A stretch of 64,000 bases of DNA. It comes from a virus. The stretch is from the IMG/VR virus record IMGVR_UViG_3300030099_006908, positions 30,846-94,845 of that record. One strand, given 5' to 3'. The notes under the pieces were generated by a model that was not told where the DNA came from, searched no databases, and was given only the letters and a program-made list of their open reading frames with translations. Position numbers and translations under genes: made by a program. Positions 30,151 to 53,148 of this stretch are shown here, one piece after another (the first letter of the stretch is position 1; each line of letters begins with the position of its first letter).

Positions 30151-30154
30151 AAAA

Positions 30155-32346: not shown

Positions 32347-32350
32347 TTAT

Positions 32351-35211: not shown

Positions 35212-35230
35212 CTTGGGATATACAATAAAT

Positions 35231-39676: not shown

Positions 39677-40617
39677 TGTATCACTTATCTGCTATTAGTG
39701 ACTTTAACTATCTAATATACGGCCTTGCCTTACGAGATTCAATAGACAATCACACAGAGTCAGACTTTCTGATACACTATCTGGCTTTAGACAAAGAAAC
39801 TAGCCAAGCATTAAAAGGCGTCCCAAACATAAAGGTTTATGAAATGGACGTAGTGGAAAAAGACGAAATGTTTGAATTGCTAAAACAGAACAATCCATCT
39901 AAACCAGGAGACCTGTCTCCCTTTCATTGGGCCTTGGCATCTTTCTTTACTCACTATCTTATGAACGAAGAGGGGTTAGACCATTGCCTCTATTCTGATA
40001 CAGATATATGTTTTTATAACGATATAAAGTCAATATTTGACTGCCTTGAAAATGAAGACATAGGACTGGTAACACATAAACATTTACCTCTTGATTACAT
40101 GCAGAGCGTAGGGTATTATAATGTTGGTGTTGTGTATTTCAGCGGCTCAGAAGAATCTAGGCAATGCTTGAAATTTTGGAGGGATTGCGTTGTAGACAAA
40201 AACAATCCATACGCTGAAAAGTTTGGAACCTGCGGCGACCAAAAGTATTTAGAGCTATTTGATTTTATTTGCGATGGAGTAAAAATAAAAGTTTTAGACC
40301 ACGAAATAGGTCACGCTGCCCCATGGAATTTCAGTCTGTCAGCGATTGAAAATAAAAAACTGACCTGGGACATGGGGCCAGCATTTTATGACTGCATGAT
40401 TAATGGAGAAAATGAAATTACACAAGATTTGGTGTTTGTTCATTTTTCTCATTTTACACCTAACTACGAAAAAAACACATACGAAATAGATTTCAATTTT
40501 GAGCCTGATGGTAAGCCATGCTGGGGCAACGTACTTCCACAGCCAGGAGTAGAAGAAATATACGACGAATATTTTGAACTATGCAAAAATACAAGAAGAA
40601 AGTATAACATATTATGA
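39676..40617 (+). CDS. GT-A glycosyltransferase (GT8/77-like)
   Basis: NYLIYGLAL..S, YSDTD, YNVGVVYF, GDQKYL, APWN, HFSH. Confidence 0.75.
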   Translation: MYHLSAISDFNYLIYGLALRDSIDNHTESDFLIHYLALDKETSQALKGVPNIKVYEMDVVEKDEMFELLKQNNPSKPGDLSPFHWALASFFTHYLMNEEGLDHCLYSDTDICFYNDIKSIFDCLENEDIGLVTHKHLPLDYMQSVGYYNVGVVYFSGSEESRQCLKFWRDCVVDKNNPYAEKFGTCGDQKYLELFDFICDGVKIKVLDHEIGHAAPWNFSLSAIENKKLTWDMGPAFYDCMINGENEITQDLVFVHFSHFTPNYEKNTYEIDFNFEPDGKPCWGNVLPQPGVEEIYDEYFELCKNTRRKYNIL

Positions 40618-41501
40618 ATATAGCTTTTGGAATGATAGTATTCAATGGAAATTATGTTCTGAAGGAATGCCTTGAGTCTGTTTATCCTTTCGCAAGTCAA
40701 ATTTTGATTTCTGAGGGGCCAGTAAAGTATTGGCAAGAGCAGGGAAATGAAACGTCAACTGACGGCACAAACGATATTTTACATGAGTTCTATGACCCAG
40801 ATAACAAGATTATTATTGAGCATGGCCAGTTTGAAGAAAAAAATGAGCAATGCAACGTGTACATGAAACATATGCGCGACGACACCGACTATATATGGAA
40901 CTTAGACTCGGACGAAATATTTAAACCAGAAGATATACAGCTAGTAATTCAAGCTTTAAAAGATTATCACTTTACCTCCGTTGGATTCAAAAGCTTTTCT
41001 TTTTACGGAGGTTTTGACGATTATTTGACGGGCTTTGAGGAAGATGCTGAATTTCATAGAATAAGAAAGGTATATCCAGGTTCATACTGGTCAACTCATA
41101 GACCGCCGACTATAGCCCATAAAGTTCAGCCTACTTTACAAGAGCTTCACTTGTCGTATAATATGTTAGCTGGCTACGGAGTTCGAATGTACCATTATTC
41201 ATACGTTTTTCCGTGGCAAGTAAAACAGAAGGTTCAATACTACAAGTCTGCTGTAAGTCGAGACAATTGCATAGATAATTATTATGAAAAGATATATGAG
41301 CCTTGGGTTAATAATCCTGAGCTTAGAGAAGAAATAGAAAAAGAGTGGGAGGGCGTACACGAATTCAAACCACGGTACAGAGGACCGTGCTATACAAAAA
41401 GGTTTGAAGGGCAGCATCCGCCAAAGATATTGCAAAATATTGACGCACTTAAAGATAAATTTAACAACCAGCTGAAAGAAGTTTGGTATGAAAATCTCTA
41501 A
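40614..41501 (+). CDS. GT2-like glycosyltransferase
   Basis: MIVFNG, STDGT, WNLDSDE, HYSYV. Confidence 0.75.
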   Translation: MNIAFGMIVFNGNYVLKECLESVYPFASQILISEGPVKYWQEQGNETSTDGTNDILHEFYDPDNKIIIEHGQFEEKNEQCNVYMKHMRDDTDYIWNLDSDEIFKPEDIQLVIQALKDYHFTSVGFKSFSFYGGFDDYLTGFEEDAEFHRIRKVYPGSYWSTHRPPTIAHKVQPTLQELHLSYNMLAGYGVRMYHYSYVFPWQVKQKVQYYKSAVSRDNCIDNYYEKIYEPWVNNPELREEIEKEWEGVHEFKPRYRGPCYTKRFEGQHPPKILQNIDALKDKFNNQLKEVWYENL

Positions 41502-42108
41502 TGACTCTGGTTGGAAAGAAGCTAGTGCAAAGGCTTTTGAGCAACAGTTTGCTCTTAATTTAAGAGAATTAAGCGACCCACCGACTCATTGGAGGTTTTT
41601 TTTAGAGGAACTGTCTAGAATAAAAAATTCAAAAAGGGTCGTAGATATAGGGTGTGGAGTAGGCTCTTTTTCCAAGCTGATTCGCATGTGGCATGGCGAT
41701 TTAAATTATGTGGGATATGATTATTCGGAAGCCGCCATAGAAACAGCCAAAAATATGTGGGGTGAATTTGGCGCGTTTGAACAAAGAGACTATCATGACA
41801 TTTCCACTAAAGACATACAGGACGGGGATGTCGTAGTTGCCAATGCTTTATGTGATGTTCTTCCAGATGGAGACGAGTGCTTTGAGCATATTCTATCGCT
41901 GGGCGCGAAGAATGTAATTTTTTTAAGAGTTCGAACTACAGAAAAAGAAAGCTTTTATGAAGAATATGAAGCATACGGTGAAATTCAAACTTATGCGTTT
42001 TATCACAATGAGTCAGGTTTGAATGAAATAATTAAAAAGAATGGGTATAATCCACCTAGATTTAATCACTATTCTGAAAATATAATGAACATTCATCTAG
42101 AAAAATGA
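41488..42108 (+). CDS. Class-I SAM-dependent methyltransferase
   Basis: VVDIGCGVG, YVGYDYSEAAI. Confidence 0.85.
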   Translation: MKISNDSGWKEASAKAFEQQFALNLRELSDPPTHWRFFLEELSRIKNSKRVVDIGCGVGSFSKLIRMWHGDLNYVGYDYSEAAIETAKNMWGEFGAFEQRDYHDISTKDIQDGDVVVANALCDVLPDGDECFEHILSLGAKNVIFLRVRTTEKESFYEEYEAYGEIQTYAFYHNESGLNEIIKKNGYNPPRFNHYSENIMNIHLEK

Positions 42109-42737
42109 AGCAAATTAAAGCTGTAACTCCGACACTTTTTGTAAAATCAAACATGGCTATAGTTGGCTCATCATCGTCTTTATTAGACGCAGAGCGGGGT
42201 CAAGATATAGACGATTTTGATGAAGTCGTAAGGTTTAACAGGGCTCCAACAGAGGGGTGGGAAAATTATGTAGGCTCAAAAACAACCCTTAGAGTCGCTA
42301 ATAATCATGTGTTTGCAAACGTAAAACATAATGTGGGTGGAGATGAGGAGTGCGACGATTGGAAGCCGCAGGGTCAACCTCAAAACTTTATAAGAGATTT
42401 AAAAGACCAAAAAATACTATTGCTTAACAAAGACTTTTCGGCATGGGAAGAGAAAGAAAAGCACATAGACTCAAGCTCAACAGCATTTTTAGGTAATTAT
42501 TTGTGCGTTGAGTCTTTTGGGGGAACTCTTTCGCCAAGTGTTGGTTACGCCTTTATAGCCTTGTGTATAATGAACGGAATCAAACCAACGTTATTTGGTT
42601 TTGGTCTTGCAGAAGAGGATAATAAAGCTAGCCATTATTGGGAGAATAAGGACAGGATTATTTCCAGCCACGGATATAAGTTGGAAAGACAAAATATTAA
42701 AAACTGGAACAAGGCAGGGAAATTGCTCATAAAATGA
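42105..42737 (+). CDS. GT29 sialyltransferase-like protein
   Basis: Sialylmotif L (AIVGSSSSL..GQDIDDFDEVVRFNRAP...VGSKTTLR), S (PSVG..C..LFGFG), III (HYWE), VS (HGYKLE). Confidence 0.88.
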   Translation: MKQIKAVTPTLFVKSNMAIVGSSSSLLDAERGQDIDDFDEVVRFNRAPTEGWENYVGSKTTLRVANNHVFANVKHNVGGDEECDDWKPQGQPQNFIRDLKDQKILLLNKDFSAWEEKEKHIDSSSTAFLGNYLCVESFGGTLSPSVGYAFIALCIMNGIKPTLFGFGLAEEDNKASHYWENKDRIISSHGYKLERQNIKNWNKAGKLLIK

Positions 42738-44587
42738 AAAACCATACAACTATCATTGCTGAGGTTGGCCTAAATCACAATGGAAGCGTAGAGATTGGAA
42801 AACGATTAGTTGATGCGGCAAAAATATCTGGAGCAGATTATGTCAAATTTCAAATGAGAGATTTGAAATCATTATATAGAAATCCAGATAATTACTACAA
42901 CGAAAGCCTAGCTACGCAATACACATTAGACCTGTTGCATAAATACGATTTGAGCTTTGATGAACTTATTGAGCTTTTTAATTATGCTAAAAAAGAAGGG
43001 ATAGAGCCATTATGCACTCCATGGGACACTCACAGCGTTTCCGTATTAGAAGCATATGGAATATCAGCTTATAAAACAGCGTCGGCTGACCTAACAAACA
43101 TTGAATTACTGGAGTGTATCGCCCAAACAAACAAGCTGATGTTTTGCTCTACCGGAATGTCAACAGAGGGAGAGATTATAAAGGCCTGTCGATTACTAGA
43201 TAAAATGAATGCTAACTACAAACTTATGCATTGCAATTCTACATATCCAGCCCCATACAAGGATATTCAACTTAAATATATTGAAAGATTAAGAGTCATA
43301 TCCAATAAGGACGTTGGATATTCTGGGCATGAAGATGGAATAGATGTGCCGATGGCTGCTGTTGCTTTGGGGGCGAACATTATAGAAAAGCATATTACCC
43401 TTGACAGGAATCAAGAAGGAAATGACCATAAGGTTAGCTTGCTTCCAGAAGAGTTTTCCGAAATGGTCAAGGGCATTCGAAATATTGAAGACGCTCTTGG
43501 CGAAGGCAAAAAAAGAAGGGTCACTCAAGGAGAGCTAATTAACAAAGACAGCTTGGCTAAAAGCATGGTAGCAAAAAAAGATATAAAATATGGCGAGGTT
43601 ATTAATAGAGATTGTATTGACATCAAAAGCCCTGGAGGGGGCTTACAGCCGATTGACCTTAATGAGATTATTGGCAAAACAGCCAAAAGACATATTAAGG
43701 CTGGAGATTTTTTCCATAAATGCGATTCAAATGAACTAGAGCTTCCGCAATATTTCGACATAGACAGAACATGGGGTCTTCCTGTACGCTTTCATGATTA
43801 TGATTTTTATCTAAAAAACAGCAATCCAAAACTTCTAGAGTTTCATCTTAGCTATAAAGACCTAGAGATGAACCCTTCAGAAATTTTCAATCAAAAATAT
43901 GACAAGGAAATAACTGTTCACGCGCCAGACCTTTTTGAAAACGACCACCTAATTGACCTAGCCTCTAAAGACGAAAACTACAGGGCAGAGTCGGTTAGAC
44001 ACATGGAAAAAGTTATATCAATATCGAAACAAATTAAACCGTTTTTCAATTGCGATAAAATTAGAATTGTTGCTAGCATCGGAGGAACCACTAGAACAGA
44101 ATGGATGAGTGATTCAGAAAAAGAAGAAGGGTACGAACTTTTGGCAAAATCTTTGGAAGAGCTAAAAGATAAGGACGTTGAGTTCTTATTGCAAACCCTA
44201 CCACCCTTTCCTTGGTATTTCGGCGGACAGCTACACTTAAACCTACTTGTTCTTCCAGACGAGATTGACTGGTTCTGCTCAAAATATAATTATAAATTAT
44301 GCCTAGACACCTCACACTCACAGTTAGCTTCAAATTACTACAAAATAAACTACATAGATTTTATTAACAAAATCAAAGACCATGTTGGACATATGCACTT
44401 ATCTGATGCGTTTGGCCTAGATGATGAAGGTATTCAGATTGGAAAAGGGCAGATAGATTTTGCCAGACTCTTGAAAAAAATCAACAATAGCGTGTCCTTT
44501 ATTCCAGAAATTTGGCAAGGACATAGAAACTTAGGCTACGATTTTTGGATAGCCTTGAGAAAGATAGAGGAAATACTAAATGATTAA
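42734..44587 (+). CDS. neuB: NeuB-family nonulosonate synthase with SAF domain and C-terminal TIM-barrel domain
   Basis: IAEVGLNHNG, VKFQ, STGMS, HCNSTYPA, GYSGHE, IEKHITLD..GNDH..SL; SAF KSPGGGL; C-terminal DTSH/HLSD/PE motifs. Confidence 0.9.
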   Translation: MKNHTTIIAEVGLNHNGSVEIGKRLVDAAKISGADYVKFQMRDLKSLYRNPDNYYNESLATQYTLDLLHKYDLSFDELIELFNYAKKEGIEPLCTPWDTHSVSVLEAYGISAYKTASADLTNIELLECIAQTNKLMFCSTGMSTEGEIIKACRLLDKMNANYKLMHCNSTYPAPYKDIQLKYIERLRVISNKDVGYSGHEDGIDVPMAAVALGANIIEKHITLDRNQEGNDHKVSLLPEEFSEMVKGIRNIEDALGEGKKRRVTQGELINKDSLAKSMVAKKDIKYGEVINRDCIDIKSPGGGLQPIDLNEIIGKTAKRHIKAGDFFHKCDSNELELPQYFDIDRTWGLPVRFHDYDFYLKNSNPKLLEFHLSYKDLEMNPSEIFNQKYDKEITVHAPDLFENDHLIDLASKDENYRAESVRHMEKVISISKQIKPFFNCDKIRIVASIGGTTRTEWMSDSEKEEGYELLAKSLEELKDKDVEFLLQTLPPFPWYFGGQLHLNLLVLPDEIDWFCSKYNYKLCLDTSHSQLASNYYKINYIDFINKIKDHVGHMHLSDAFGLDDEGIQIGKGQIDFARLLKKINNSVSFIPEIWQGHRNLGYDFWIALRKIEEILND

Positions 44588-45503
44588 AGGTCCAGTTTAC
44601 CCAATTATTTTACCATTTAATAACAAAAAAGATATTGACATTCCGTCTCTTCAGAGATATATATCATATATAGTCGATGGAGGTGGAAAATATATAATGG
44701 TCGCTTCGGCAACCAGTAGGTTTTCTCAGCTATCTACCGAAGAGATTAAAACAGTAAACAAGGTAACAATAGAGTCAACCATAGAAAGCGGAGGCGTTCC
44801 AATCGCTTCTACGCCTATAAGTGGAAGCACTAAAACACACATAGAGGTTGCCCAACAAGCAGAAAGAGATGGGGCTGAAATTGTTATCTGTGAATATCCT
44901 TGGAGGTATCAAGGCTCAGGTCCTTTAATAGATTATTTTAAAGAGATAGTGAACAACACAAACCTTGACGTAATGCTTCACGTTACACCAACCAGAAGCG
45001 AAGTAGAAACCAGCTTTGGAAAAACACATAGATATGAAATTGACGATTTGGTAGAAATATGCTCTTTACCAAGGGTCATAGGATTTAAGGAAGCTGCCGG
45101 AGACCCAGAACATTCAGAAAAAATATGGCGTGTTTTAGGTAAATCTACGAGTATTATAGTGGCGGTCGCGGCAAGCGAGACATTCTTGAAGGCTCGTCCA
45201 TACGGTGCTACTGGATTTTTCACTGGAATTGAAAGCATATTTCCAAGATTTGGAAAAGAAGTTTACGATTTAATTTTGAATGACGACAAAGAAAAGTCTT
45301 CTGAAATAGTTTCACAAATGTCTGACTTATTGCACTCATGCAAAAATTTTGGATGGCATGCTGCTTCAAAATACTGTCTTTTTAAATTAGGCATTATGGG
45401 AATAGACGAAAGAGAGCCTATGAACCCAATAAGCGAAGAAGCTCAAAAAATATTAGACCCTAAAATTGAAACTCTAATTGATATATATGGACAATATAGT
45501 TAG
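44580..45503 (+). CDS. DHDPS/N-acetylneuraminate lyase-family class I aldolase
   Basis: ILPF..DIDIPSL, ATSRFSQLSTEE, VIGFKEA (Schiff-base Lys), GATGFFTG. Confidence 0.8.
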   Translation: MIKGPVYPIILPFNNKKDIDIPSLQRYISYIVDGGGKYIMVASATSRFSQLSTEEIKTVNKVTIESTIESGGVPIASTPISGSTKTHIEVAQQAERDGAEIVICEYPWRYQGSGPLIDYFKEIVNNTNLDVMLHVTPTRSEVETSFGKTHRYEIDDLVEICSLPRVIGFKEAAGDPEHSEKIWRVLGKSTSIIVAVAASETFLKARPYGATGFFTGIESIFPRFGKEVYDLILNDDKEKSSEIVSQMSDLLHSCKNFGWHAASKYCLFKLGIMGIDEREPMNPISEEAQKILDPKIETLIDIYGQYS

Positions 45504-46326
45504 AAGCAAATGGGGGATACATAATCGAAGCATTGAGAAGATAAATGCTTTGTATGGAGATGTATATAATCTAGACAATAAATATATATTAAAAATAACA
45601 AATATAAATTCAAATGAAAAGCAAGGCTTAATTAATTCGTTCATGAATAAAGCTCATGAAAAAGGATTTCCGGTTCCGAGAACAACACAAACAAAAGAAG
45701 GCGGTTTATTTTTTTCAGAATCTAGAAAAACATACTCTTTGTATGATTATATTTCAGGAAATCACTATGATTTTAAAGAAGGTTCTCTAATACAGGCCGC
45801 AACAACACTTGCCCGTTTTCATGATGAGTTTGAAAAAGAATTAGAGCTTGAACAAGAGGTTGAAAAGGTTTGCGGAGACGTTTACCCCTATGACTTATCG
45901 GGTATTAAATACTATACCAGCGAGGTCAGGGAGGCGGTTAAGCTAATAGATAGGTCAGAAAGGTTTTGCGTTAGTCTTCCTAGACAGATTGGACATTTTG
46001 ATTACATACCTAGCAACTTGATATTTAAAAACGGAAAAATGATAGGTTTAATAGATTTCGATATCATGCGTGTTTCTGAGAAAGCGAGGGATTTGGCCAT
46101 CTCACTGCACAGGCTAACAAAAAATGAATTACAAAAAAAGCTGTTCTTAGATTCTTACGGGTCTATAAATAATTTAACAGATGCAGAATTGCAGTCTATG
46201 AATGATTTATATTTTGATGAGATGAAAAGAAAATTAATTTATACTATCAGGAGATATAATATATCGCCTAAGCCATTTAAAGTTTTATTTGACAGGATAA
46301 AAAATGAAAAACTTGAACGAGTTTAG
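45487..46326 (+). CDS. APH/choline-kinase-like phosphotransferase
   Basis: YILK, LARFH, Brenner-like HFDYIPSNL, LIDFD. Confidence 0.78.
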   Translation: MDNIVRSKWGIHNRSIEKINALYGDVYNLDNKYILKITNINSNEKQGLINSFMNKAHEKGFPVPRTTQTKEGGLFFSESRKTYSLYDYISGNHYDFKEGSLIQAATTLARFHDEFEKELELEQEVEKVCGDVYPYDLSGIKYYTSEVREAVKLIDRSERFCVSLPRQIGHFDYIPSNLIFKNGKMIGLIDFDIMRVSEKARDLAISLHRLTKNELQKKLFLDSYGSINNLTDAELQSMNDLYFDEMKRKLIYTIRRYNISPKPFKVLFDRIKNEKLERV

Positions 46327-47011
46327 CTCAGAATTAAAAAAAGATGCGCAAGGTATGCACGATGACTGTAAGCTTCAGGATGATGCGTTTAGTGTATTGG
46401 TCAGGGCTGACAGACATAGGTGGATACACCAAACAAACTTTGCTGGAATTCCCGCGTTGCAACTACCTCAAGACTTGTTTGCTATTCAGGAAATAGTTTT
46501 TAAAACTAAACCTCAAGTCATAGTAGAGCTTGGTGTTGCGTGGGGAGGAACTACAATGTTCCTTGAGTCTTTTCATCAGGGAGATATAATAGGGGTAGAC
46601 CTCCAAATACCAGACCACCTAAGAGACGCAACCGCATTTAAAGGAAATATTAGGTTCCTTATAGGAGACAGCGTTTTGAGCGCAGAGGTAATTAAAAGGT
46701 TTGTTGGAGATAGAAGTTGTATGGTTGTAGTAGACTCTATGCACACACATAAACACGTTCTTGAAGAACTCAACGCTTTTTCAGACATTGTTACCCCTGG
46801 CTGCTACATGGTTGTTTGCGACACTCTAGTTGACGACCCAAGATACCACGAAGACGGAGCGGCAAGAAATCGTCCTTGGGGACCAGGAAACAGCCCAAGA
46901 AGCGCTTTGAATCAGTTTCTTGAAGAAAATCCAGAGTTTGAAAGAGACGAGAACATAAGAAATAAACTATTGTTTTCATGCCAACCAGACGGATACATAT
47001 ACAAGAAATGA
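46304..47011 (+). CDS. CmcI (cephalosporin hydroxylase)-family O-methyltransferase
   Basis: QLPQDL..QEI..KP..IVELGVAWGG, DSMHTHKHVLEEL, WGPGNSP, PDGY. Confidence 0.88.
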   Translation: MKNLNEFSSELKKDAQGMHDDCKLQDDAFSVLVRADRHRWIHQTNFAGIPALQLPQDLFAIQEIVFKTKPQVIVELGVAWGGTTMFLESFHQGDIIGVDLQIPDHLRDATAFKGNIRFLIGDSVLSAEVIKRFVGDRSCMVVVDSMHTHKHVLEELNAFSDIVTPGCYMVVCDTLVDDPRYHEDGAARNRPWGPGNSPRSALNQFLEENPEFERDENIRNKLLFSCQPDGYIYKK

Positions 47012-48006
47012 AAGAAACCCTTACGTTAATAGTCCCTCTTCTAGACAGGCACGAGCTTACAGACCGGTCATTGAAGTGGTTAGAGCAGCAAGAATGCGAG
47101 TGTAAAGTTATACTTGCGGACGGAAGCAAGGTTCCGTTTTCTGGCTCCTATAAGAGCCTGGATATACAGTATTTCTATAACGGCTTTGATGAAAACATAG
47201 CTCGATACATGAACAAAATGCATCGGGCTACTCAAATGGTTGAAACTCCGAGTTGCATGATATTTGATAACGACGATGTTATTAATTTAAGCGGCATACT
47301 GAATGGGGCTTATTTTTTGAGCGAAAACGATGATTACAGCACCTATCAAAATGACGTAAGGCCACTTGAGATATATCCAGAAATAAGCGTCAAGGATTCT
47401 TTGTACACAGGAAAATCAATAGAACAGGAACTTCCCGAAGACAGGCTGTTGAACGTTATAAGTAATTTTAACAGCTTTAACTACGCCGTTTTCAGAACCT
47501 CTATAATGAAATGCTTTTTCGAGATTATGGACGCTTTAAAAAACGATGATTTCCAATTATTTCAAAAATCTTGGGCATATACATCAGCGATTTTAGGCAA
47601 GTGCAAGAGGCTTCAAGACCAGTCTTATTACTATTTCATTCCTGGCAACAGCATATTACAAACAGGGGGCAAGGTACATAAGTTTAGCAACTGGGTTTCA
47701 ACGCAATACTGGAACGAGTCCTGCCCAAAAATGGTTTCTATTATATCATGTCTTTACCGAGGTGACATAAGAGAAATATTCTTAAGAGCCTTTTTAGATG
47801 AGATTTGCAAAAAAAACAATATTGAACCGGCTAGTGAAGAATATATTGATGGAGTCATCAAAGCTTCTCACGACTATGACGACACAGTACGAAAAGTTGT
47901 AGACAAATACTGTAAGTTATTTACGTTTGAATCGTGGCGTTTTAATGCCCAGGAATATTATCCAGTTGGACACGCTACCTTTGTGGAGGATATTATTGAT
48001 GGCTAA
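47008..48006 (+). CDS. TIGR00180-like GT-A glycosyltransferase
   Basis: LIVPLLDRH, ILADGS, VETP..DNDD, YAVFRT. Confidence 0.7.
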   Translation: MKETLTLIVPLLDRHELTDRSLKWLEQQECECKVILADGSKVPFSGSYKSLDIQYFYNGFDENIARYMNKMHRATQMVETPSCMIFDNDDVINLSGILNGAYFLSENDDYSTYQNDVRPLEIYPEISVKDSLYTGKSIEQELPEDRLLNVISNFNSFNYAVFRTSIMKCFFEIMDALKNDDFQLFQKSWAYTSAILGKCKRLQDQSYYYFIPGNSILQTGGKVHKFSNWVSTQYWNESCPKMVSIISCLYRGDIREIFLRAFLDEICKKNNIEPASEEYIDGVIKASHDYDDTVRKVVDKYCKLFTFESWRFNAQEYYPVGHATFVEDIIDG

Positions 48007-48865
48007 ACATGTAGTTCTTGATGCTATTGCTCGTTCTGGCACAACTCTAATGAGCGCGCTTCTTAGAAGCCAAGAAAAAACAATTGCTTTCTGTCCTGGA
48101 TTTAATGAGCCTCTTTCTTGTAAAAACATGGGGGAGTGGCCTCATGGAATGTGTAGAAAAGAGTTTGTTAATCGGCCTGAGTTAAGTTTAGACTTGTTTA
48201 AAAAAGAGAGTCTTTCCTATATCAACGATTACGCTCAGTATTATGGTCTTAGCAAAGATTCGTGGAGGTCTATAATTTATGATGCGTCTAGCACAAAAGA
48301 TATAAGAAAAAATATGGAAGAGGCTTTTCCTGATGTTGAAGTTTTTTGTTATAGATGGAATCAGGCTTTATGTTATTTTTACGAATGGATAGAAAAAGGC
48401 GAAGATTATCTTTGGGTTTCAATGATAAGAAACCCCCTGGATAGAGCGGTTTCTTCTATGCAAAAACATGGATGGTCCTTTGAAGACAGCTTAAACAGCA
48501 CCTTATCTTTTTGCGAAAAGTTAAAGTCGGTAAAAAATAATGAAAAATTTTATTTAATTCGATACGAGAGTCTAGCAAATTTGCCAGAGAAAGAGATGCA
48601 AGATATATACTCTTTTTTTTCGGTAAACCTCAGCTCAATAAATCTAAATGATATAAAGGGTTCCAATGGAGAGCATTTTATACCTCAAAGCTCTACAATA
48701 AAAGATACTACCACAAAAAAAGACGGGTATCTAACTGAAGCAGAAAAATTTAACGGGGTTTACACAAATCAAATAAATAGACATCCGTTCCATGAAGACG
48801 ATGATGTGTATCGGTGTTTTATGGACAGCTTGTCTGAATATGAAGAATATAAGGTATATTTTTAA
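47999..48865 (+). CDS. Sulfotransferase
   Basis: 5'-PSB ARSGTTL, 3'-PB IRNPLDRAVS, IRYESL..PE. Confidence 0.8.
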   Translation: MAKHVVLDAIARSGTTLMSALLRSQEKTIAFCPGFNEPLSCKNMGEWPHGMCRKEFVNRPELSLDLFKKESLSYINDYAQYYGLSKDSWRSIIYDASSTKDIRKNMEEAFPDVEVFCYRWNQALCYFYEWIEKGEDYLWVSMIRNPLDRAVSSMQKHGWSFEDSLNSTLSFCEKLKSVKNNEKFYLIRYESLANLPEKEMQDIYSFFSVNLSSINLNDIKGSNGEHFIPQSSTIKDTTTKKDGYLTEAEKFNGVYTNQINRHPFHEDDDVYRCFMDSLSEYEEYKVYF

Positions 48866-49740
48866 TGAAAGAAAACTTTTTACACATAGGCTATCACAAG
48901 ACAGCTACCACATGGATGCAGCAGTTCATGTTCCCGATAATATTTGAATCAAAGTATTTTGGAAAGTCTATTGAGCAAAAAAGAGACAACACCCTTTATT
49001 TAAGGGAAATGGATAACTTAAAAAACTTATTCTACAAAAATTCAAACGCTTGCTTCTCTGACGAGTTTTTCATGAAGCCTATGCCTAGAGGAAAGTTTGA
49101 CTTTGAAAAGAATATCGCTATAACAGATAGAAACAATATGCCAACGCCATCAAAAGAATTTTATATCTGCTCAGACAATCATGTAAAATCAATTTGTAAT
49201 AAAATTTGCTCTAACCTTGTAGATGAGAATATTAACACCAAGGTTATTTTATCCATTAGAAATCAAACAGACATGTTCTTTTCTATGTACTTGCACCAAG
49301 AAAGAGCGCCTCACCAAAAATGGAACAGTCCAGATATATGGGTTAAAGACTTAAACGGATTCATTTCAAAGTTTGATAGAAAATTTCTTACAAAAAAGCT
49401 TAAAAATTATTATGATTTTAATAATACATACACGCAATTAGTAAAAACTTTTGGACAAAAAAATGTGCATGTTATAATATATGAAAACCTTTTCAAAAAC
49501 ACTGAAAATGAAATAAATAGGCTTTATTGTTTTATGGCAAAAGAAATGGACTTAAAAGCGTTAGAGCAAATAAAAAGCCGTGTTAGCACAAAAAAGAACG
49601 ACAGTCGGAACGATTCCTATAAAAGACAAAAAAACGGAGAAGATATAAGAAAATTGTTGATGCAAGAATACAAAGATTCTAATAAAGAACTCTCTAAGCT
49701 AATAAAATTTGATTTAAGCAAATACGGATATCACCAATGA
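48865..49740 (+). CDS. Sulfotransferase
   Basis: HIGYHKTATTWMQ, SDE, IRNQTD..S.Y, IYENL. Confidence 0.8.
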   Translation: MKENFLHIGYHKTATTWMQQFMFPIIFESKYFGKSIEQKRDNTLYLREMDNLKNLFYKNSNACFSDEFFMKPMPRGKFDFEKNIAITDRNNMPTPSKEFYICSDNHVKSICNKICSNLVDENINTKVILSIRNQTDMFFSMYLHQERAPHQKWNSPDIWVKDLNGFISKFDRKFLTKKLKNYYDFNNTYTQLVKTFGQKNVHVIIYENLFKNTENEINRLYCFMAKEMDLKALEQIKSRVSTKKNDSRNDSYKRQKNGEDIRKLLMQEYKDSNKELSKLIKFDLSKYGYHQ

Positions 49741-50432
49741 AAAGAAGATTAGCTGTAATTCCAGCAAGAAGCGGAAGTAAAAGGTTTCCAGGAAAAAATT
49801 GGGCAAAACTAGGAGAATACCCTCTGTGGCAGTGGAGCGTTGATGTTGCCTCTGTTGCTTTTGAAACCACTGTCTTCACAACAGACTCAGAAAATCTTCT
49901 GTACGATGTTGTAAATAAAGAAGGAAGTTTTGTAGCAGGCCTACTAAGACCCAAAGAGCTGTCCTCAGACACCTCAAAGGTAATAGATACAGTAAATTGG
50001 ATTTATGATATATACGACAAAAGTCCAAGTAAGCCCGACGAAATTTGGCTGCTTCTTCCAACGTGCCCATTAAGGAGTCTTAAAGACGCAGTTGATGCTC
50101 AAGACAAATTAAGCGCCAACAATGACTGCGATGGAATAATTAGCATTACGGACTATGAGTTTCCACCTCAACTTGGATTGACGCATGAGGGTGAACAGAT
50201 AAGGGACTGGCATGAAAGTAAGCCTTGGCAGTCTGGAAACACTAGAAGCCAGGACCATGAAAAAATATACAGACCAAACGGAGCGCTTTACGGAATGAAG
50301 TGGGAGGCATTTAGACAAAACAGAAATTTCTATAAAGGAAAAATATGCAGTTACTATATGCCCAGAGAGCGTTCAGTTGATATAGATAATGAAATTGACC
50401 TTAAATTAGCAGAGGCGTTAATCAATGAATAA
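49737..50432 (+). CDS. neuA: CMP-nonulosonate synthetase (acylneuraminate cytidylyltransferase)
   Basis: IPARSGSKRFPGKN, LRPKELSSD, LLPTCPLR, RSQD, NGALY, SVDIDNEID. Confidence 0.9.
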   Translation: MKRRLAVIPARSGSKRFPGKNWAKLGEYPLWQWSVDVASVAFETTVFTTDSENLLYDVVNKEGSFVAGLLRPKELSSDTSKVIDTVNWIYDIYDKSPSKPDEIWLLLPTCPLRSLKDAVDAQDKLSANNDCDGIISITDYEFPPQLGLTHEGEQIRDWHESKPWQSGNTRSQDHEKIYRPNGALYGMKWEAFRQNRNFYKGKICSYYMPRERSVDIDNEIDLKLAEALINE

Positions 50433-51081
50433 CACAGCAGTTGACAGCGATGTTATAAAGACAATAAAAGATGTCGGCCTTTACATATATCCTGAGCTTA
50501 TTGATGCAGATATTGTTAAAAGGCTGAAATCTCAAACCCTGTCTCTTCTCGATGAGCGAGGAGACAAAAACTATAAGTTTGGAACAGCAATAAATATGGG
50601 CGGTCTAAACGAACAGGACGGGGATATTAGAAAGTTTTTTGATACTGATTACTTCAACAGTGTGGCGCGACAATACGGCAAGAGAGAAGCTAGGGCGGTT
50701 ATGGCCACGCACGACTATCAAAACGATAATGGCACAGACAGAAACGGCTTTCTTCATTTTGATAGAACGCATACATTCAAATTCTTTTTATATTTGACTG
50801 ATTGCGATGAATATAGCGGGGCGTTTAGATATGTTCCTGGTTCTAGGAAACTAGGTGAAACTTTAAGAACACAGGCAACCGTTGATGCTGGGGGAGACTA
50901 TAAAACAATAGCTAACAGATTAGAGTTAGATTATTTAGATTTAAACTATACCGCAGAGGATGCAGAGCCTCTTGAGGGTAAAGCTGGAACTTTATTTGCT
51001 TTTGACACAGACACCTTTCATATGGGTGGTGTGGTACAAGATGGAAAAGAAAGGATTGTAATTAGGTCGCATTATGTCTAA
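50425..51081 (+). CDS. PhyH-like 2-oxoglutarate/Fe(II) dioxygenase
   Basis: LHFD, FLYLTD..GAFRYVPGS, FDTDTFHMGG..R. Confidence 0.82.
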   Translation: MNNTAVDSDVIKTIKDVGLYIYPELIDADIVKRLKSQTLSLLDERGDKNYKFGTAINMGGLNEQDGDIRKFFDTDYFNSVARQYGKREARAVMATHDYQNDNGTDRNGFLHFDRTHTFKFFLYLTDCDEYSGAFRYVPGSRKLGETLRTQATVDAGGDYKTIANRLELDYLDLNYTAEDAEPLEGKAGTLFAFDTDTFHMGGVVQDGKERIVIRSHYV

Positions 51082-52249
51082 GATAAAATTTTTAGATTTG
51101 GGCACACAGCCCATTGCAAACGGGTTTTTAAAAGAATCAGACCTGGGTAAAGATGAGTATACATTCAATTTATCTGTTGGTATATGTAGTGAGACGTTTT
51201 TAGTTTCTCTTATGGATTTTGTAGACCCGCCAAAGATGTTTAATGAAAGCTATCCATTCCACACATCCGCTTCTCCAGTGATGGAGTCTCATTTTAAAAG
51301 AACCTCTAATTTGCTGTCAAAATTAAATCCAAGCAAGGTTATGGAGATAGGAAGTAATGACGGCGCGTTCTTAAAAAACTTTCATCCATCTAAGGCTATA
51401 TCAGTAGAACCATGCTCTAATTTTGCTAGACATACACAAGAACTTGGGTATACAACCTATGATGAGTTTTGGACCCAAGAACTTGCAGACCGCGTATGTT
51501 CATCTAATGGAAAGCAAGACTTAATATTCTCTGCGAATTGCATGTGCCATATACCTGACATAGAAGGTGCGTTTAAAGCCGTAGCCTCCTGCCTAGACAA
51601 AGACGGGGTTTTTGTTTTTGAAGACCCGTCACTGGTGTTTATGCTTATGAGAAACTCGTATGACCAAATATACGATGAACACGCACACATATTCTCCCTA
51701 CATTCTTTGTCTATAATGCTTAAAAGGGCCGGTCTAAAGATATGGAAGGTCGATGTTCTTGAGAATGTGCATGGAGGCTCTTGCAGGGTTTATGCCGTTC
51801 ATGAAAACAACCCCGTAAAAAAGGTTGATTCCACCCTAATGAAATTTGAGAGAATTTGCGGAATAAACAAGAGTGGTTTTGAAATATACTACTCATTCGC
51901 TAGGAACGTACAGAAAAGCAAAGAGGCTCTTGTTGACGCTCTATCTGCTTTAAAAGACAGAGGCAAGAAGGTCATTAGCTTTGGCGCAACTTCCAAGTCT
52001 ACCACAGTATTTAATTATTGCGGAATTGGAAATGAGTTAATAGACTATATAACTGATAGGACAGACGATAAAATTGGAAAATTCTCTCCTGGAAAGCATA
52101 TACCGATTATAGAAGAAGGAGTAGGGTTTGATGATTCTGTTGACGCTGCATTTCTTGGCGCGTGGAATTATAAAGACGCGATACTTACGAAGTATTCAGA
52201 TTTTAAAGGCTCTTGGATTACTCACGTTCCAGAGGTTTCTGTAATATGA
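51074..52249 (+). CDS. NDP-sugar C-methyltransferase
   Basis: LDLGTQPIANGF, EIGSNDG, YDQIYDEH, HGGS.R, GATSKSTT..NYCG, K.GKFSPG.HIPI, AWNY. Confidence 0.88.
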   Translation: MSKIKFLDLGTQPIANGFLKESDLGKDEYTFNLSVGICSETFLVSLMDFVDPPKMFNESYPFHTSASPVMESHFKRTSNLLSKLNPSKVMEIGSNDGAFLKNFHPSKAISVEPCSNFARHTQELGYTTYDEFWTQELADRVCSSNGKQDLIFSANCMCHIPDIEGAFKAVASCLDKDGVFVFEDPSLVFMLMRNSYDQIYDEHAHIFSLHSLSIMLKRAGLKIWKVDVLENVHGGSCRVYAVHENNPVKKVDSTLMKFERICGINKSGFEIYYSFARNVQKSKEALVDALSALKDRGKKVISFGATSKSTTVFNYCGIGNELIDYITDRTDDKIGKFSPGKHIPIIEEGVGFDDSVDAAFLGAWNYKDAILTKYSDFKGSWITHVPEVSVI

Positions 52250-53148
52250 AAATTTTAGTTACGGGCGGTCTTGGGCACATAGGCTCTTATATTATAAGAA
52301 CTTCGTTTGCAGAGAATGGAATTTCTGTTGTGGATGACTTATCTACCAACAGGTATTGTTCTTTGATGAATCTTCCATACCCTATTGATTTTATAAATGA
52401 CGGCTTTGAGAATCTAAGCGAAGAGTTTTTAAAAAAGTTTGACGTTGTTCTTCATCTTGCTGCCGTGACAGACGCGGCCAGAGGTGACTCTGAAAGCATT
52501 GAAAAAATCAATGTTGGACACACAAGAGACTTTATAAAAAAATTAGCTTCTATAGACAGTTCGCCTTTGTTTATATTTCCCTCATCAACAAGCGTTTATG
52601 GTACAGCTTCCGATATTGTTAAGGAAGATGACGAGAGCGTTTTAAAGCCACAAAGCTACTACGCTTCGTCTAAACTGGTTATAGAAAACTTTCTTAGAGA
52701 AAATTACCCTAGACACTTGATTCTCAGATTTGGAACAATATTTGGGGCAACTCCAGGCATGAGATTTCATACAGCGATTAATCACTTCTGCTGGGCCGCT
52801 TCGATGAAACAGCCCCTAGAAGTTTGGGAGCAAAACTATCACTACCACAGGCCATATCTTGACGTAAGAGACGCAGAAAGGTCAATTTCTCATCTTCTTT
52901 ACAAAGGCGTGGAAAGTCAAACATATAATGTACTTAGCGACAACTACAAATGTAGTGATATTATAAAAATAATAAAAGCTTACGTTCCCGACCTTGAAGT
53001 AAATATGGTCAAGACACCCCTTCTTAACCAGTTCTCCTACCTTGTAGACGACAGCAAGCTCAGTGCAACCGGGATAAATTTAAACGGAAGCATAAAACGA
53101 GGAATAAAAGAAACATTGGGATTACTTAAATGCGTAAAAAGATTTTAA
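52246..53148 (+). CDS. NAD-dependent sugar epimerase/dehydratase (extended SDR)
   Basis: ILVTGGLGHIG, SSTSVYG, YASSK, RFGTIFG. Confidence 0.85.
   Translation: MKILVTGGLGHIGSYIIRTSFAENGISVVDDLSTNRYCSLMNLPYPIDFINDGFENLSEEFLKKFDVVLHLAAVTDAARGDSESIEKINVGHTRDFIKKLASIDSSPLFIFPSSTSVYGTASDIVKEDDESVLKPQSYYASSKLVIENFLRENYPRHLILRFGTIFGATPGMRFHTAINHFCWAASMKQPLEVWEQNYHYHRPYLDVRDAERSISHLLYKGVESQTYNVLSDNYKCSDIIKIIKAYVPDLEVNMVKTPLLNQFSYLVDDSKLSATGINLNGSIKRGIKETLGLLKCVKRF

What the first reader, a model, noticed from the sequence alone, without database searches (positions are those of the whole stretch)
42105..50432. Synthase-activator-transferase sialylation set built around an animal-type GT29
Seen: a compact GT29 with all four sialylmotifs (L, S, III, VS) and no TM anchor, ATGA-coupled to neuB, followed by a NanA/DHDPS-type aldolase and a kinase, with neuA further on. 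Established: GT29 is the mainly eukaryotic Golgi sialyltransferase family; most characterised bacterial sialyltransferases belong to GT38/42/52/80. No NeuC epimerase is in the window. Inference: the phage makes, CMP-activates and transfers its own nonulosonic acid, possibly KDN-like or novel, with the aldolase and kinase supplying or recycling precursor.
Basis: partly seen in the sequence, partly recalled or inferred. Interest (0 to 1): 0.85.

Follow-up and report, generated by a model that had tools for sequence, protein, structure and literature searches.

The report
Phage acidic-sugar module with mini-sialyltransferase
An uncultured large marine phage carries soluble genes that most likely build a sialic-acid-like sugar, activate it with CMP and attach it with a small bacterial-type relative of animal sialyltransferases. 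The sugar-making part is a swappable cassette built around an unstudied fused enzyme.

Summary
ORF 42105-42737 is a real 210-aa GT29: Pfam 69.9 bits, all four sialylmotifs, a confident model that best matches mammalian sialyltransferases, and no membrane anchor. It overlaps by ATGA a NeuB-type synthase. A DHDPS-family enzyme and an APH-type kinase follow, and a NeuA-type CMP-synthetase lies 3.4 kb further on. No NeuC occurs in the whole 94.8-kb phage record.

Four corrections apply.
- The GT29 is the compact, anchor-less bacterial type described from sequence in 2018, not an animal type.
- "neuB" is a 617-aa NeuB-SAF-TIM-barrel fusion. This family is widespread in bacteria and uncharacterised, and it falls outside the labelled NeuB and PseI reference groups.
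- The "aldolase" keeps the Schiff-base lysine but has His in place of the catalytic Tyr, so it is not NanA.
- The kinase is unique to this phage.

New here: the 3.6 kb between GT29 and the next methyltransferase is a cassette. The closest relative (83% nt identity in the flanks, GT29 89% identical, NeuA 86%) carries KdsA plus a DHDPS-like gene there instead.

The module sits in a 28-kb island of about 34 soluble glycan enzymes. Sugar identity and acceptor remain unknown. This scan had already found GT29+KdsA+DHDPS+NeuA phage modules in at least 24 other genomes; this window is the NeuB-fusion variant.

The parts
28414..56507 (+). Glycan-synthesis island of about 34 co-directional, mostly overlapping genes (GT1/GT2/GT4/GT8-like transferases, methyltransferases, NDP-sugar enzymes, the ulosonate module and a dTDP-deoxysugar module), directly downstream of the split DnaE operon
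   Evidence: Pfam and PHROG scans. No predicted TM segment in any of the 34 proteins, and gene overlaps of 1-83 nt at nearly all junctions.
39628..42108 (+). Conserved upstream block GT8-like / GT2 / SAM-methyltransferase that precedes GT29 in most related phage loci
   Evidence: Pfam. tblastn and profile labelling show the same order in L002-L016 and L019.
42105..42737 (+). Compact soluble GT29 glycosyltransferase, the predicted CMP-ulosonate transferase
   Evidence: PF00777 at 69.9 bits; PDB sequence hits; invariant motif residues; AF2 pLDDT 90 and Foldseek to ST8SiaIII/ST3Gal-I/ST6GalNAc2.
42736..46327 (+). Exchangeable synthase cassette (NeuB-TIM fusion + DHDPS-like + kinase). In relatives L003/L002 it is replaced by DHDPS-like + KdsA.
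   Evidence: blastn: homology to L003 (83% identity) stops at 42735 and resumes at 46328. Junctions are bridged by contigs of runs from other studies.
42734..43738 (+). NeuB + SAF domains of the 617-aa fusion: PEP-dependent ulosonic-acid synthase
   Evidence: PF03102 at 267 bits, SAF at 39 bits. TIGR03569 at 313 bits (below cut-off 400) and PseI at 238 bits (below 340). PDB PseI 8h2c and NmNeuB 1xuu. In the tree it falls in the fusion-specific group.
43739..44587 (+). C-terminal metal-dependent TIM-barrel domain (AP_endonuc_2 / ketose-3-epimerase / Endo IV fold) fused to NeuB. Function unknown; candidate supplier of the aldose or phosphatase of the product.
   Evidence: PF01261 at 73.5 bits; MJ1311 3wqo; AF2 pLDDT 95; Foldseek; hhalign to UlaE and Nfo; ligand columns.
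44580..45503 (+). Divergent DHDPS/NAL-superfamily enzyme (Schiff-base Lys kept, catalytic Tyr replaced by His)
   Evidence: PF00701 at 101.7 bits; below every NCBIfam equivalog cut-off; alignment with E. coli DapA and NanA.
45478..46326 (+). APH-fold small-molecule kinase with intact HxDxxxxN and DFD motifs, found only in this phage among the loci compared
   Evidence: PF01636 at 43.2 bits; sequence; one member only in the profile search over 27 loci.
46304..47011 (+). CmcI/rhamnosyl-O-methyltransferase-family methyltransferase (tailoring)
   Evidence: PF04989 at 167 bits; 88% identical in L003.
46978..48006 (+). Glycosyltransferase of the TIGR04440 type
   Evidence: TIGR04440 at 123 bits, above the cut-off of 70.
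47927..49740 (+). Two sulfotransferase-family genes (47927-48865 and 48865-49740). In L003 and L002 the second is replaced by a TylF-type methyltransferase.
   Evidence: PF13469/PF00685; L003 and L002 comparison.
49737..50432 (+). NeuA-type CMP-ulosonate synthetase (cytidylyltransferase)
   Evidence: PF02348 at 49 bits; PseF at 113 bits, below cut-off 205; full-length hits to CMP-Neu5Ac synthetases 6ifd, 9ftb, 1eyr and 1qwj; the N-terminal motif IPARSGSKRFPGKN can be read in the translation.
50425..51081 (+). PhyH-type Fe(II)/2-oxoglutarate dioxygenase, conserved next to NeuA in several relatives (possible hydroxylation of the sugar)
   Evidence: PF05721 at 41 bits; adjacency in L002, L003, L013 and L014.

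Best explanation
This is a phage-encoded, entirely cytoplasmic module for a CMP-activated 3-deoxy-2-ulosonic acid. The NeuB domain of the 617-aa fusion condenses PEP with an aldose or aldose phosphate to give a nine-carbon acidic sugar (inferred from family). The fused metal-dependent TIM-barrel domain performs the step that NeuC, PseG or a HAD phosphatase performs elsewhere: it frees or isomerises the aldose, or dephosphorylates the product (inferred from the fusion, from the absence of NeuC and from bacterial contexts). The NeuA-type enzyme makes the CMP-sugar. The small soluble bacterial-type GT29 transfers it to a glycan assembled by the neighbouring soluble transferases. Methyl-, sulfo- and hydroxylating enzymes tailor the product. 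The synthase part is a cassette: closely related phages hold KdsA plus a DHDPS-like enzyme at the same site. The phage lineage therefore varies the acidic sugar while keeping nearly the same activating enzyme and transferase. The acceptor is unknown. Because no gene in the island encodes a membrane protein, a virion protein or a host lipid-linked glycan handled by host machinery are the likeliest targets.
For: Enzyme families: GT29 identity comes from HMM, motifs and fold. NeuB scores 267 bits with a SAF domain. NeuA-type aligns full-length to solved CMP-Neu5Ac synthetases.

Operon structure: genes are translationally coupled, co-directional and overlapping.

Conservation: 26 viral loci carry GT29, and nearly all have a NeuA-type gene plus either KdsA+DHDPS-like (12 loci) or a NeuB (10 loci, 4 of them as TIM fusions, counting this window) within a few kb.

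Cassette: the boundaries are exact at 42735 and 46328, with flanks 83% identical to L003. GT29 is 89% and NeuA 86% identical across the swap. On the GT29 tree the synthase type changes at least 5 times, and the window nests inside a KdsA-type pair with support 95 and 98.

Fusion family: 766 clusters, mostly NeuB-SAF-TIM or CBS-NeuB-SAF-TIM. In two Verrucomicrobiota genomes (L039, L040) and on an Ensifer canadensis plasmid the fusion sits next to a NeuA-type gene inside glycan operons, with no DHDPS homologue found within about 10 kb. In Ensifer a bifunctional ManC lies just upstream of that NeuA-fusion pair, and in phage L021 a GDP-mannose 4,6-dehydratase lies directly upstream of the fusion.

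Other: no NeuC in the record, no TM segment in 34 island proteins, and phage identity from RIIA/RIIB, RNR, a UvsX-like protein, DnaB, primase and the IMG/VR record.
Against: No biochemistry exists for any component. The NeuB domain is below the NeuB and PseI equivalog cut-offs and outside the labelled reference groups, so even the carbon skeleton is inferred. In the window's TIM domain two consensus metal-ligand positions have changed: His of HPGG to Ser and Glu of ENMPP to Gln. The Glu position is the one that aligns with the conserved Glu-containing stretches of UlaE and Endo IV, so the domain could have a non-canonical or no catalytic role. Nearly identical NeuA and GT29 proteins sit with KdsA in L003, so either they are promiscuous or the two cassettes make similar products. 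Neither has been shown. The DHDPS-like enzyme and the kinase have no assigned step. The record is about 35% complete, so missing genes such as NeuC could lie elsewhere. The acceptor is unknown.
Confidence: 0.68

Rival explanations
1. Animal-style phosphorylated route. The APH-fold kinase phosphorylates a hexose or N-acylhexosamine, the NeuB domain acts as a 9-phosphate synthase (as in animals and the Bacteroides Kdn pathway), the fused TIM domain is the 9-phosphate phosphatase in place of the usual HAD enzyme, and then NeuA and GT29 act. This is a specific version of the main explanation.
For: A kinase with intact catalytic motifs lies in the same cassette. No HAD phosphatase matched among the ten region proteins scanned. 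The TIM domain matches Endo IV phosphoesterases about as well as ketose epimerases in Foldseek. It has conserved His/Asp/Glu at positions aligned with Nfo D179, H182 and H216, and the His+Glu pair aligned with Nfo's HPGS and ENT stretches is lost together in one subgroup, as expected for residues that share a metal. ManC (Man-6-P supply) sits next to the module in Ensifer.
Against: The kinase is absent from all 26 other phage loci and from the bacterial modules, so it cannot be a core step. hhalign favours the sugar-phosphate epimerase UlaE (90%) over Nfo (57%). No AP_endonuc_2 member is known to me as a sugar phosphatase (own knowledge).
Confidence: 0.25
2. Salvage or recycling reading. The DHDPS-like protein is a lyase that cleaves host sialic acid or Kdo to supply pyruvate and an aldose, and the kinase traps the aldose for re-use.
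For: The DHDPS/NAL superfamily includes N-acetylneuraminate lyase. The Schiff-base Lys is conserved. There is a weak hit to the NanA models.
Against: The catalytic Tyr (DapA Y133, NanA Y137) is His in all 15 distinct phage sequences examined, and the GSTGE glutamate is Gln or Arg. The NanA model scores 43.6 bits against a cut-off of 382. Two subfamilies track the synthase type (KdsA against NeuB) and sit inside the biosynthetic cassette, which fits a committed biosynthetic step. The bacterial NeuA+fusion modules lack it.
Confidence: 0.12
3. The acceptor is phage DNA. The soluble island builds oligosaccharide-hypermodified bases, as in phages SP-15, YerA41 and Carin-5, where sugar-modifying genes and glycosyltransferases flank the polymerase gene.
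For: The island starts 70 nt after the second DnaE half and contains no membrane protein. The Carin-5 paper describes a sugar/GT block next to the DNA polymerase, including a 'KDO transferase'-like GT (PMC12686479).
Against: No ThyA- or ThyX-type hydroxymethylase homologue occurs in the 94.8-kb record. The island holds about 34 genes, far more than known DNA-glycosylation systems. Homologous NeuA+fusion modules in bacteria lie in ordinary polysaccharide operons.
Confidence: 0.08
4. The GT29 does not use the product of this cassette. It transfers host-made CMP-Kdo or another CMP-sugar, and the NeuB cassette feeds a different transferase in the island.
For: The same GT29 (89% identity) is paired with KdsA in L003. 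Plant GT29 RCKT1 is a putative CMP-Kdo transferase. The island has about ten other glycosyltransferases.
Against: Across 26 loci GT29 lies within a few kb upstream of a synthase and/or a NeuA-type gene, and is directly adjacent in many. In the window the two genes are translationally coupled. No other CMP-sugar-type transferase family was detected in the island.
Confidence: 0.1

Closest known systems
Bacterial GT29 sialyltransferase-like proteins (Petit et al. 2018, Sci Rep 8:2946, PMC5811610)
   Same: Compact and soluble, with no TM or stem region. Sialylmotifs L, S, III and VS are present, and the L/S disulfide cysteines are not conserved. They are mostly from marine bacteria and none has been characterised biochemically.
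   Different: Those 23 sequences are cellular, mostly alpha-proteobacterial. This one is phage-borne and embedded in a synthase/activator operon. Identity to the bacterial copies found here (Opitutales, Flavobacteriaceae MAGs) is 36-39%. I did not align the 2018 set itself.
Classical bacterial nonulosonic-acid clusters (NeuC/NeuB/NeuA; PseB-I/PseF; Leg genes) with GT38/42/52/80 transferases
   Same: A PEP-dependent NeuB-family synthase followed by a CMP-synthetase and a dedicated transferase. CMP activation is of the NeuA type.
   Different: No NeuC, PseG or LegG hydrolysing enzyme. The synthase is fused to a TIM-barrel domain and lies outside the labelled NeuB and PseI groups. The transferase is GT29. 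There is an extra DHDPS-like enzyme and a kinase. No membrane export or polymerase genes are present.
Phage KdsA + DHDPS-like + NeuA + GT29 modules noted earlier in this scan (e.g. e1-5784242, e1-5359821, e1-5954515), seen here in L002-L005, L007, L013, L014, L017, L018, L020, L022 and L025
   Same: The same GT29 and NeuA families, the same upstream GT8/GT2/MT block, and the same soluble architecture. L003 is 83% identical in nucleotides in the flanks.
   Different: The eight-carbon-type synthase KdsA (best PDB match Aquifex KDO8PS, E 5e-51) is replaced here by a NeuB-TIM fusion. The DHDPS-like partner belongs to the other subfamily, and a kinase is added.
[quoted passage not shown]
   Same: A GT29 member whose likely donor is a CMP-activated 3-deoxy-2-ulosonic acid other than sialic acid. 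This shows that the family is not restricted to nine-carbon donors.
   Different: RCKT1 is a Golgi type II membrane protein of a eukaryote. Its activity is inferred from mutant glycan analysis, not from an enzyme assay.
Animal and Bacteroides Kdn/Neu5Ac-9-phosphate route (kinase, 9-P synthase, HAD phosphatase, CMAS, GT29). Recalled from own knowledge, not tested here.
   Same: A kinase, a NeuB-family synthase, a CMP-synthetase and a GT29 transferase in one pathway, with no NeuC.
   Different: No HAD phosphatase matched among the proteins scanned; a fused TIM-barrel domain would have to take its place. The kinase has the APH fold, not ROK or GNE. All proteins are soluble and bacterial in type.
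Polysaccharide gene clusters of jumbo cyanophages (Iyer et al. 2021, Viruses 13:63, PMC7824862)
   Same: Large, polymorphic phage islands of sugar kinases, nucleotidyltransferases and several glycosyltransferase families. They are proposed to remodel host surface polysaccharide.
   Different: That survey contains none of the words sialic, sialyltransferase, Kdo, nonulosonic or NeuB.

Membership tests
CAZy GT29 / Pfam PF00777 | Match to the family HMM above the curated threshold | tested here: met
   69.9 bits against a cut-off of 23, profile positions 58-271 of 272. The six-frame search of the record also passes the cut-off.
CAZy GT29 / Pfam PF00777 | Sialylmotifs L, S, III (HYxE) and VS (HxxxxE) with their conserved residues | tested here: met
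   R43-F44-N45, G147, G165, H177-Y178, H189 and E194 are invariant in 27 homologues. Motifs L, S and III align to ST3Gal-I. The motif-L cysteine is absent (Met17), as reported for bacterial GT29.
CAZy GT29 / Pfam PF00777 | GT-A variant 2 fold of solved sialyltransferases | tested here: met
   AF2 pLDDT 90.3. Foldseek to 5bo9, 2wml and 6apl with E 4e-10 to 2e-9 and TM (by query) 0.62-0.68. GT42 CstII ranks lower.
CAZy GT29 / Pfam PF00777 | Type II membrane topology (N-terminal anchor plus stem), a feature of the eukaryotic Golgi members | tested here: not met
   The protein is 210 aa and starts 16 residues before motif L. Maximum hydropathy is 1.51, with no TM segment. This excludes the 'animal-type' reading, not family membership.
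CAZy GT29 / Pfam PF00777 | Transfer from a CMP-activated ulosonic acid | not testable with these tools
   Needs an enzyme assay.
N-acetylneuraminate synthase NeuB (TIGR03569) / pseudaminate synthase PseI (TIGR03586) | Score above the equivalog cut-off | tested here: not met
   313 bits against 399.65 (NeuB_NnaB) and 238 bits against 340.25 (PseI).
N-acetylneuraminate synthase NeuB (TIGR03569) / pseudaminate synthase PseI (TIGR03586) | Groups with labelled NeuB or PseI in a tree | tested here: not met
   NeuB domains of the TIM fusions form their own group (support 91), apart from the neuB+pseI+bpsE references (98). Only 8 references, a quick tree, and no labelled Leg or Kdn synthases.
NeuB superfamily (PF03102 + SAF) | NeuB TIM-barrel domain plus a C-terminal SAF/antifreeze-like domain | tested here: met
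   PF03102 at 267 bits over the full length, PF08666 at 39 bits. Aligns over residues 5-331 to NmNeuB and PseI structures.
N-acetylneuraminate lyase NanA / DapA (DHDPS family) | Schiff-base lysine (DapA K161, NanA K165) | tested here: met
   Lys is conserved in all 15 distinct phage sequences examined.
N-acetylneuraminate lyase NanA / DapA (DHDPS family) | Catalytic Tyr (DapA Y133, NanA Y137) and the G(S/T)TGE motif | tested here: not met
   Tyr is replaced by His in all 15. The motif Glu is replaced by Gln or Arg. NanA model 43.6 bits against 382, DapA model 71 bits against 206.
CMP-nonulosonate synthetase (NeuA/PseF/CMAS; PF02348) | Family HMM and full-length similarity to solved CMP-Neu5Ac synthetases | tested here: met
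   PF02348 at 49 bits. 6ifd E 5e-19, 9ftb, 1eyr and mouse 1qwj over residues 2-230. KdsB models match only the first 60-85 residues.
CMP-nonulosonate synthetase (NeuA/PseF/CMAS; PF02348) | Equivalog-level assignment (PseF) | tested here: not met
   113 bits against a cut-off of 205.7.
Ketose 3-epimerase / xylose-isomerase-like TIM barrel (PF01261) | Family HMM and fold | tested here: met
   73.5 bits. AF2 pLDDT 95. Foldseek to 8xiv, 3wqo and 2zvr, but also to Endo IV 5zhz and 4hno, at similar E-values.
Ketose 3-epimerase / xylose-isomerase-like TIM barrel (PF01261) | Glu of the ENMPP motif, the position aligned with the conserved Glu-containing stretches of UlaE and Endo IV (its ligand and catalytic role is recalled from own knowledge) | tested here: not met
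   The window has Gln (LLQTLPP). The change co-varies with loss of the HPGG His in 8 of the 20 aligned homologues.

The most novel reading that the evidence does not exclude
The NeuB-SAF-TIM fusion is a self-sufficient, NeuC-independent synthase for an undescribed nonulosonic acid, for example a Kdn-like or 9-deoxy sugar derived from mannose-6-P or a GDP-mannose derivative. The phage GT29/NeuA pair accepts both eight- and nine-carbon ulosonic acids. Marine phages then swap KdsA-type and NeuB-type cassettes to vary the terminal acidic sugar displayed on their virions or on the infected cell. The divergent Lys/His DHDPS-like enzyme would catalyse a new modification of the free ulosonic acid.
Probability: 0.3. 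Interest if true: 0.78.

Novelty: new variant of a known kind. Interest (0 to 1): 0.62.

Why it matters
No prokaryotic or viral GT29 enzyme has been characterised; they are known from sequence only. A phage operon that couples one to its own donor pathway gives a defined system for asking what bacterial-type GT29s transfer, and therefore what the ancestor of animal sialyltransferases did.

The exact cassette swap between phages with nearly identical NeuA and GT29 is a natural experiment on donor specificity (C8 against C9 acids). The NeuB-TIM fusion is widespread in bacteria, including a cultured Ensifer, and is unstudied. It may define a NeuC-independent route to sialic-acid-like sugars.

Acidic-sugar decoration by abundant marine phages would also bear on phage-host recognition and on the pool of such sugars in seawater.

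Tried and rejected
Contexts of the metagenomic fusion proteins could not be read, so I used the genome search, the fetch from genomes and a plasmid record instead.
It says little about how common GT29 is in bacteria.
- Sequencing runs: no RNA holder is listed, so nothing can be said about expression.
- The TIM domain could not be assigned. Foldseek ranks ketose 3-epimerases and Endo IV alike, and hhalign gives UlaE 90% and Nfo 57%.
- The PDB search for the kinase gave only weak APH(3') hits, and the NCBIfam hits (CotS, homoserine kinase II) are far below their cut-offs.
- The Atlas search for the DHDPS-like protein returned only generic DHDPS clusters.
- Literature searches for phage-encoded GT29 or NeuB and for NeuB/xylose-isomerase fusions found nothing relevant. 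The library lacks most subscription journals, so this does not prove that none exists.
- DNA hypermodification: I looked for ThyA and ThyX and found none.
- I did not build a GT29 tree with eukaryotic sequences because none could be fetched by reference. I rely on PMC5811610 for that relationship.
- I did not run the 'longer' or 'shorter' homologue searches for GT29, so I make no claim that no fused form exists.

Full report
**What the window is.** The window is bases 30846-94845 of a 94,845-bp IMG/VR virus record that CheckV rates about 35% complete. It encodes a ribonucleotide reductase, a UvsX-like recombinase, a DnaB helicase, a primase and a split DnaE polymerase. RIIA and RIIB lie just upstream in the record. 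The 4.2-kb stretch studied here recurs almost letter for letter in marine metagenome runs of several studies. Calling it a large marine phage is therefore justified, although no structural gene lies on this fragment.

**The observation.** ORF 42105-42737 (210 aa) matches PF00777 at 69.9 bits against a cut-off of 23, E 3e-19, over profile positions 58-271 of 272. By sequence alone it hits solved pig ST3Gal-I, ST6Gal1, ST8SiaIII and ST6GalNAc2.
- In an alignment of 27 homologues the invariant residues are those of the four sialylmotifs: R43-F44-N45 in L, G147 and G165 in S, H177-Y178 in III, and H189 and E194 in VS.
- An AF2 model has mean pLDDT 90. Its best Foldseek matches are human ST8SiaIII, pig ST3Gal-I and human ST6GalNAc2 (E 4e-10 to 2e-9), followed by the GT42 enzymes CstII and CstI.
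- The protein starts 16 residues before motif L and has no hydrophobic segment.
- Its TGA stop overlaps the ATG of the next gene (ATGA).
- The following genes are a NeuB-family protein, a DHDPS-family protein and an APH-fold kinase with intact HxDxxxxN and DFD motifs. Then come a CmcI-type methyltransferase, a TIGR04440 glycosyltransferase, two sulfotransferases, a NeuA-type cytidylyltransferase and a PhyH dioxygenase.
- No NeuC-type epimerase (PF02350) occurs anywhere in the record.
- X10 and X11, runs of other studies that are not flagged as a possible source of this DNA, bridge the GT29/NeuB, fusion/DHDPS and kinase/methyltransferase junctions without a mismatch; the DHDPS/kinase junction is bridged only by X10 and by X9, which may be the source of this DNA.

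**Correction 1: not an animal-type enzyme.** Petit et al. 2018 (PMC5811610) reported 23 bacterial GT29 sequences, mostly alpha-proteobacterial and marine. They have all four sialylmotifs but no transmembrane domain and no conserved L/S cysteines, and the authors argue that bacteria are the source of the eukaryotic family. The phage protein has exactly these traits. All 169 close homologues in the large protein collection are about 200-230-aa metagenomic proteins. A strict pattern scan found copies in Opitutales and Flavobacteriaceae MAGs at 36-39% identity. GT29 membership also does not fix a nine-carbon donor: Arabidopsis GT29 RCKT1/MGP2 is, on mutant-glycan evidence, a CMP-beta-Kdo transferase (PMC11288761).

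**Correction 2: neuB is a fusion.** The 617-aa product has NeuB (267 bits), SAF and a C-terminal AP_endonuc_2 TIM-barrel domain (73.5 bits).
- The NeuB part scores below the equivalog cut-offs for both NeuB (313 against 400) and PseI (238 against 340).
- In a tree with PGAP-labelled neuB, pseI and bpsE genes, whose neighbours are neuC, pseG and pseH, the NeuB domains of TIM fusions form their own group (support 91). That group is separate from the reference group (98) and from a third group of short, SAF-less phage NeuBs (94).
- An exhaustive profile search with the TIM domain found 766 clusters at E up to 0.001. Of the ten checked by Pfam, eight are fused to NeuB, as NeuB-SAF-TIM (about 600-700 aa) or CBS-NeuB-SAF-TIM (about 750 aa), and two are stand-alone.
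- The fusion occurs in 6 of 301 sampled Verrucomicrobiota genomes. In the two loci that could be read cleanly (L039, L040) it lies next to a NeuA-type gene in an operon with GT2 transferases and a carbamoyltransferase.
- It also occurs on Ensifer canadensis T173 plasmid pT173e, in the order ManC (PMI/GMP), NeuA-type, fusion, GT4.
- In phage locus L021 a GDP-mannose 4,6-dehydratase directly precedes the fusion.
- No DHDPS homologue was found near these bacterial modules with the queries used, and the annotated flanks show no NeuC-type gene.

The NeuA + fusion pair therefore looks like a self-contained unit, and the TIM domain is the best candidate for the step that elsewhere frees or prepares the aldose or dephosphorylates the product.

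**What the TIM domain might do.** Its model is very confident (pLDDT 95). Foldseek ranks ketose 3-epimerases (8xiv, MJ1311 3wqo) and endonuclease IV (5zhz, 4hno) about equally. Profile comparison favours E. coli UlaE (90%) over Nfo (57%). Conserved His/Asp/Glu columns align with Nfo D179, H182 and H216 and with the UlaE ligands. The window, together with 7 of the 19 other aligned homologues, has lost the HPGG His (to Ser) and the ENMPP Glu (to Gln) together. That Glu position aligns with conserved Glu-containing stretches of both UlaE and Nfo, so a canonical epimerase mechanism is unlikely here. I leave the reaction open: isomerase/epimerase, phosphatase or NDP-sugar hydrolase.

**Correction 3: the aldolase is not NanA.** Aligned with E. 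coli DapA and NanA, all 15 distinct phage DHDPS-like proteins examined keep the Schiff-base Lys. All have His in place of the catalytic Tyr (Y133/Y137) and Gln or Arg in place of the GTTGE/GSTGE Glu. They split into two subfamilies. One (TTAGTSQ motif) always sits beside KdsA. The other (NSRF/TSRF motif, including the window) sits with NeuB. This coupling fits a committed step on the free 2-keto-3-deoxy acid, but the reaction is unknown.

**Correction 4: the kinase is an accessory.** It occurs only in this phage among the 27 loci compared.

**The cassette.** A scan of IMG/VR gave 26 loci with the compact GT29. Profile labelling shows a conserved GT8-like/GT2/methyltransferase block upstream. 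Downstream there is either DHDPS-like + KdsA + NeuA (12 loci), a short NeuB + NeuA (6 loci), or a NeuB-TIM fusion + NeuA (4 loci, counting the window). The KdsA-type protein of L003 is a true Kdo-8-P synthase relative (Aquifex KDO8PS, E 5e-51).

Against L003, nucleotide homology runs at 83% up to window position 42735, two bases before the GT29 stop, and resumes at 46328, just inside the CmcI methyltransferase. Between these points the window has 3.6 kb (fusion, DHDPS-like, kinase) and L003 has 1.66 kb (DHDPS-like, KdsA). GT29 is 89% and NeuA 86% identical across the swap. On a GT29 tree the synthase type changes at least five times, and the window nests inside a KdsA-type pair with support 95 and 98. 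Tailoring genes also differ: the FkbM methyltransferase at 36516-37253 is absent from L003, and a sulfotransferase is replaced there by a TylF methyltransferase.

**Setting and target.** The module lies in a 28-kb island (28414-56507) of about 34 co-directional, mostly overlapping genes. These encode glycosyltransferases, methyltransferases, nucleotidyltransferases and a dTDP-deoxysugar branch. None has a predicted TM segment, and there is no flippase, polymerase or initiating phosphoglycosyl transferase.

The acceptor is therefore either a cytoplasmic macromolecule, most plausibly virion proteins, or a host lipid-linked glycan completed by host machinery, as proposed for jumbo-cyanophage polysaccharide clusters (PMC7824862). 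Glycan-hypermodified DNA, as in phage Carin-5 where sugar genes flank the polymerase (PMC12686479), is a minor rival. The island abuts the DnaE operon, but no ThyA or ThyX homologue is present in the record.

**Verdict.** The best-supported reading (about 0.68) is a phage-encoded, soluble pathway that synthesises a NeuB-type ulosonic acid without NeuC, activates it with CMP and transfers it with a bacterial-type GT29. Shown here: the families, motifs, folds, gene coupling, conservation, cassette boundaries, and the distinctness of the NeuB, DHDPS-like and TIM proteins from characterised enzymes. Inferred: every catalytic step, the identity of the sugar, and the acceptor.

Earlier notes of this scan had already recorded the KdsA-type version of this module in at least 24 genomes. 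This window adds the NeuB-fusion variant, the exact swap, and a cultured bacterial model for the fusion. I found no paper describing phage GT29 modules or the NeuB-TIM fusion, within the limits of the library searched.

Noticed in passing
L046 7937-10917 (Ensifer canadensis T173 plasmid pT173e, NZ_CP083371.1 about 901400-904400): A cultured rhizobium carries the NeuA-type + CBS-NeuB-SAF-TIM pair, 53% identical to the window's NeuB part. A bifunctional ManC lies upstream and a GT4 downstream. PLSDB lists no annotation there. This is a tractable model for the fusion family.
   Followed up: partly
window 43739-44587 and alignment A2: In the TIM-domain family the HPGG His and the ENMPP Glu are either both present or both replaced (Ser/Asn/Val and Gln), in 12 against 8 of the 20 sequences. 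This is as expected for two residues that bind one metal, and it suggests two functional subtypes.
   Followed up: partly
L009-L011, L015, L016, L019 (e.g. L010 10612-11439): Short phage NeuB proteins of 271-293 aa that lack the SAF domain form their own group in the tree. In L016 and L019 a 113-121-aa ORF follows them, which in L016 is a small cupin by Pfam.
   Followed up: no
L018 8567 and 10001; LR756508.1 (484-kb uncultured phage): Some phages hold several GT29 copies: two in L018, separated by a methyltransferase, and five tblastn places in the huge phage LR756508.1, which also has a NeuB about 1.2 kb upstream of the best-scoring one.
   Followed up: no
window 36516-37253 and 48865-49740: Further small cassette differences from L003. 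An FkbM methyltransferase is present only in the window, and the second sulfotransferase is replaced in L003 and L002 by a TylF-type O-methyltransferase. The tailoring chemistry varies as well as the synthase.
   Followed up: partly
window 50425-52249: A PhyH-type Fe/2-oxoglutarate dioxygenase and an NDP-hexose C-methyltransferase follow NeuA, conserved as a trio in L002, L003, L013 and L014. The dioxygenase could hydroxylate the ulosonic acid, by analogy with Kdo 3-hydroxylase KdoO (recalled, not tested).
   Followed up: no
window 28414-30150 and L046 10947-12521: The first gene of the island and the GT4 next to the Ensifer fusion both give weak hits to PF20706 (GT4 in conflict systems).
   Followed up: no
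L039 12982-14742, L040 5437-7662: In Verrucomicrobiota a carbamoyltransferase (NodU/CmcH type) and a DUF6625 protein sit directly beside the NeuA + fusion pair, hinting at a carbamoylated acidic sugar there.
   Followed up: no
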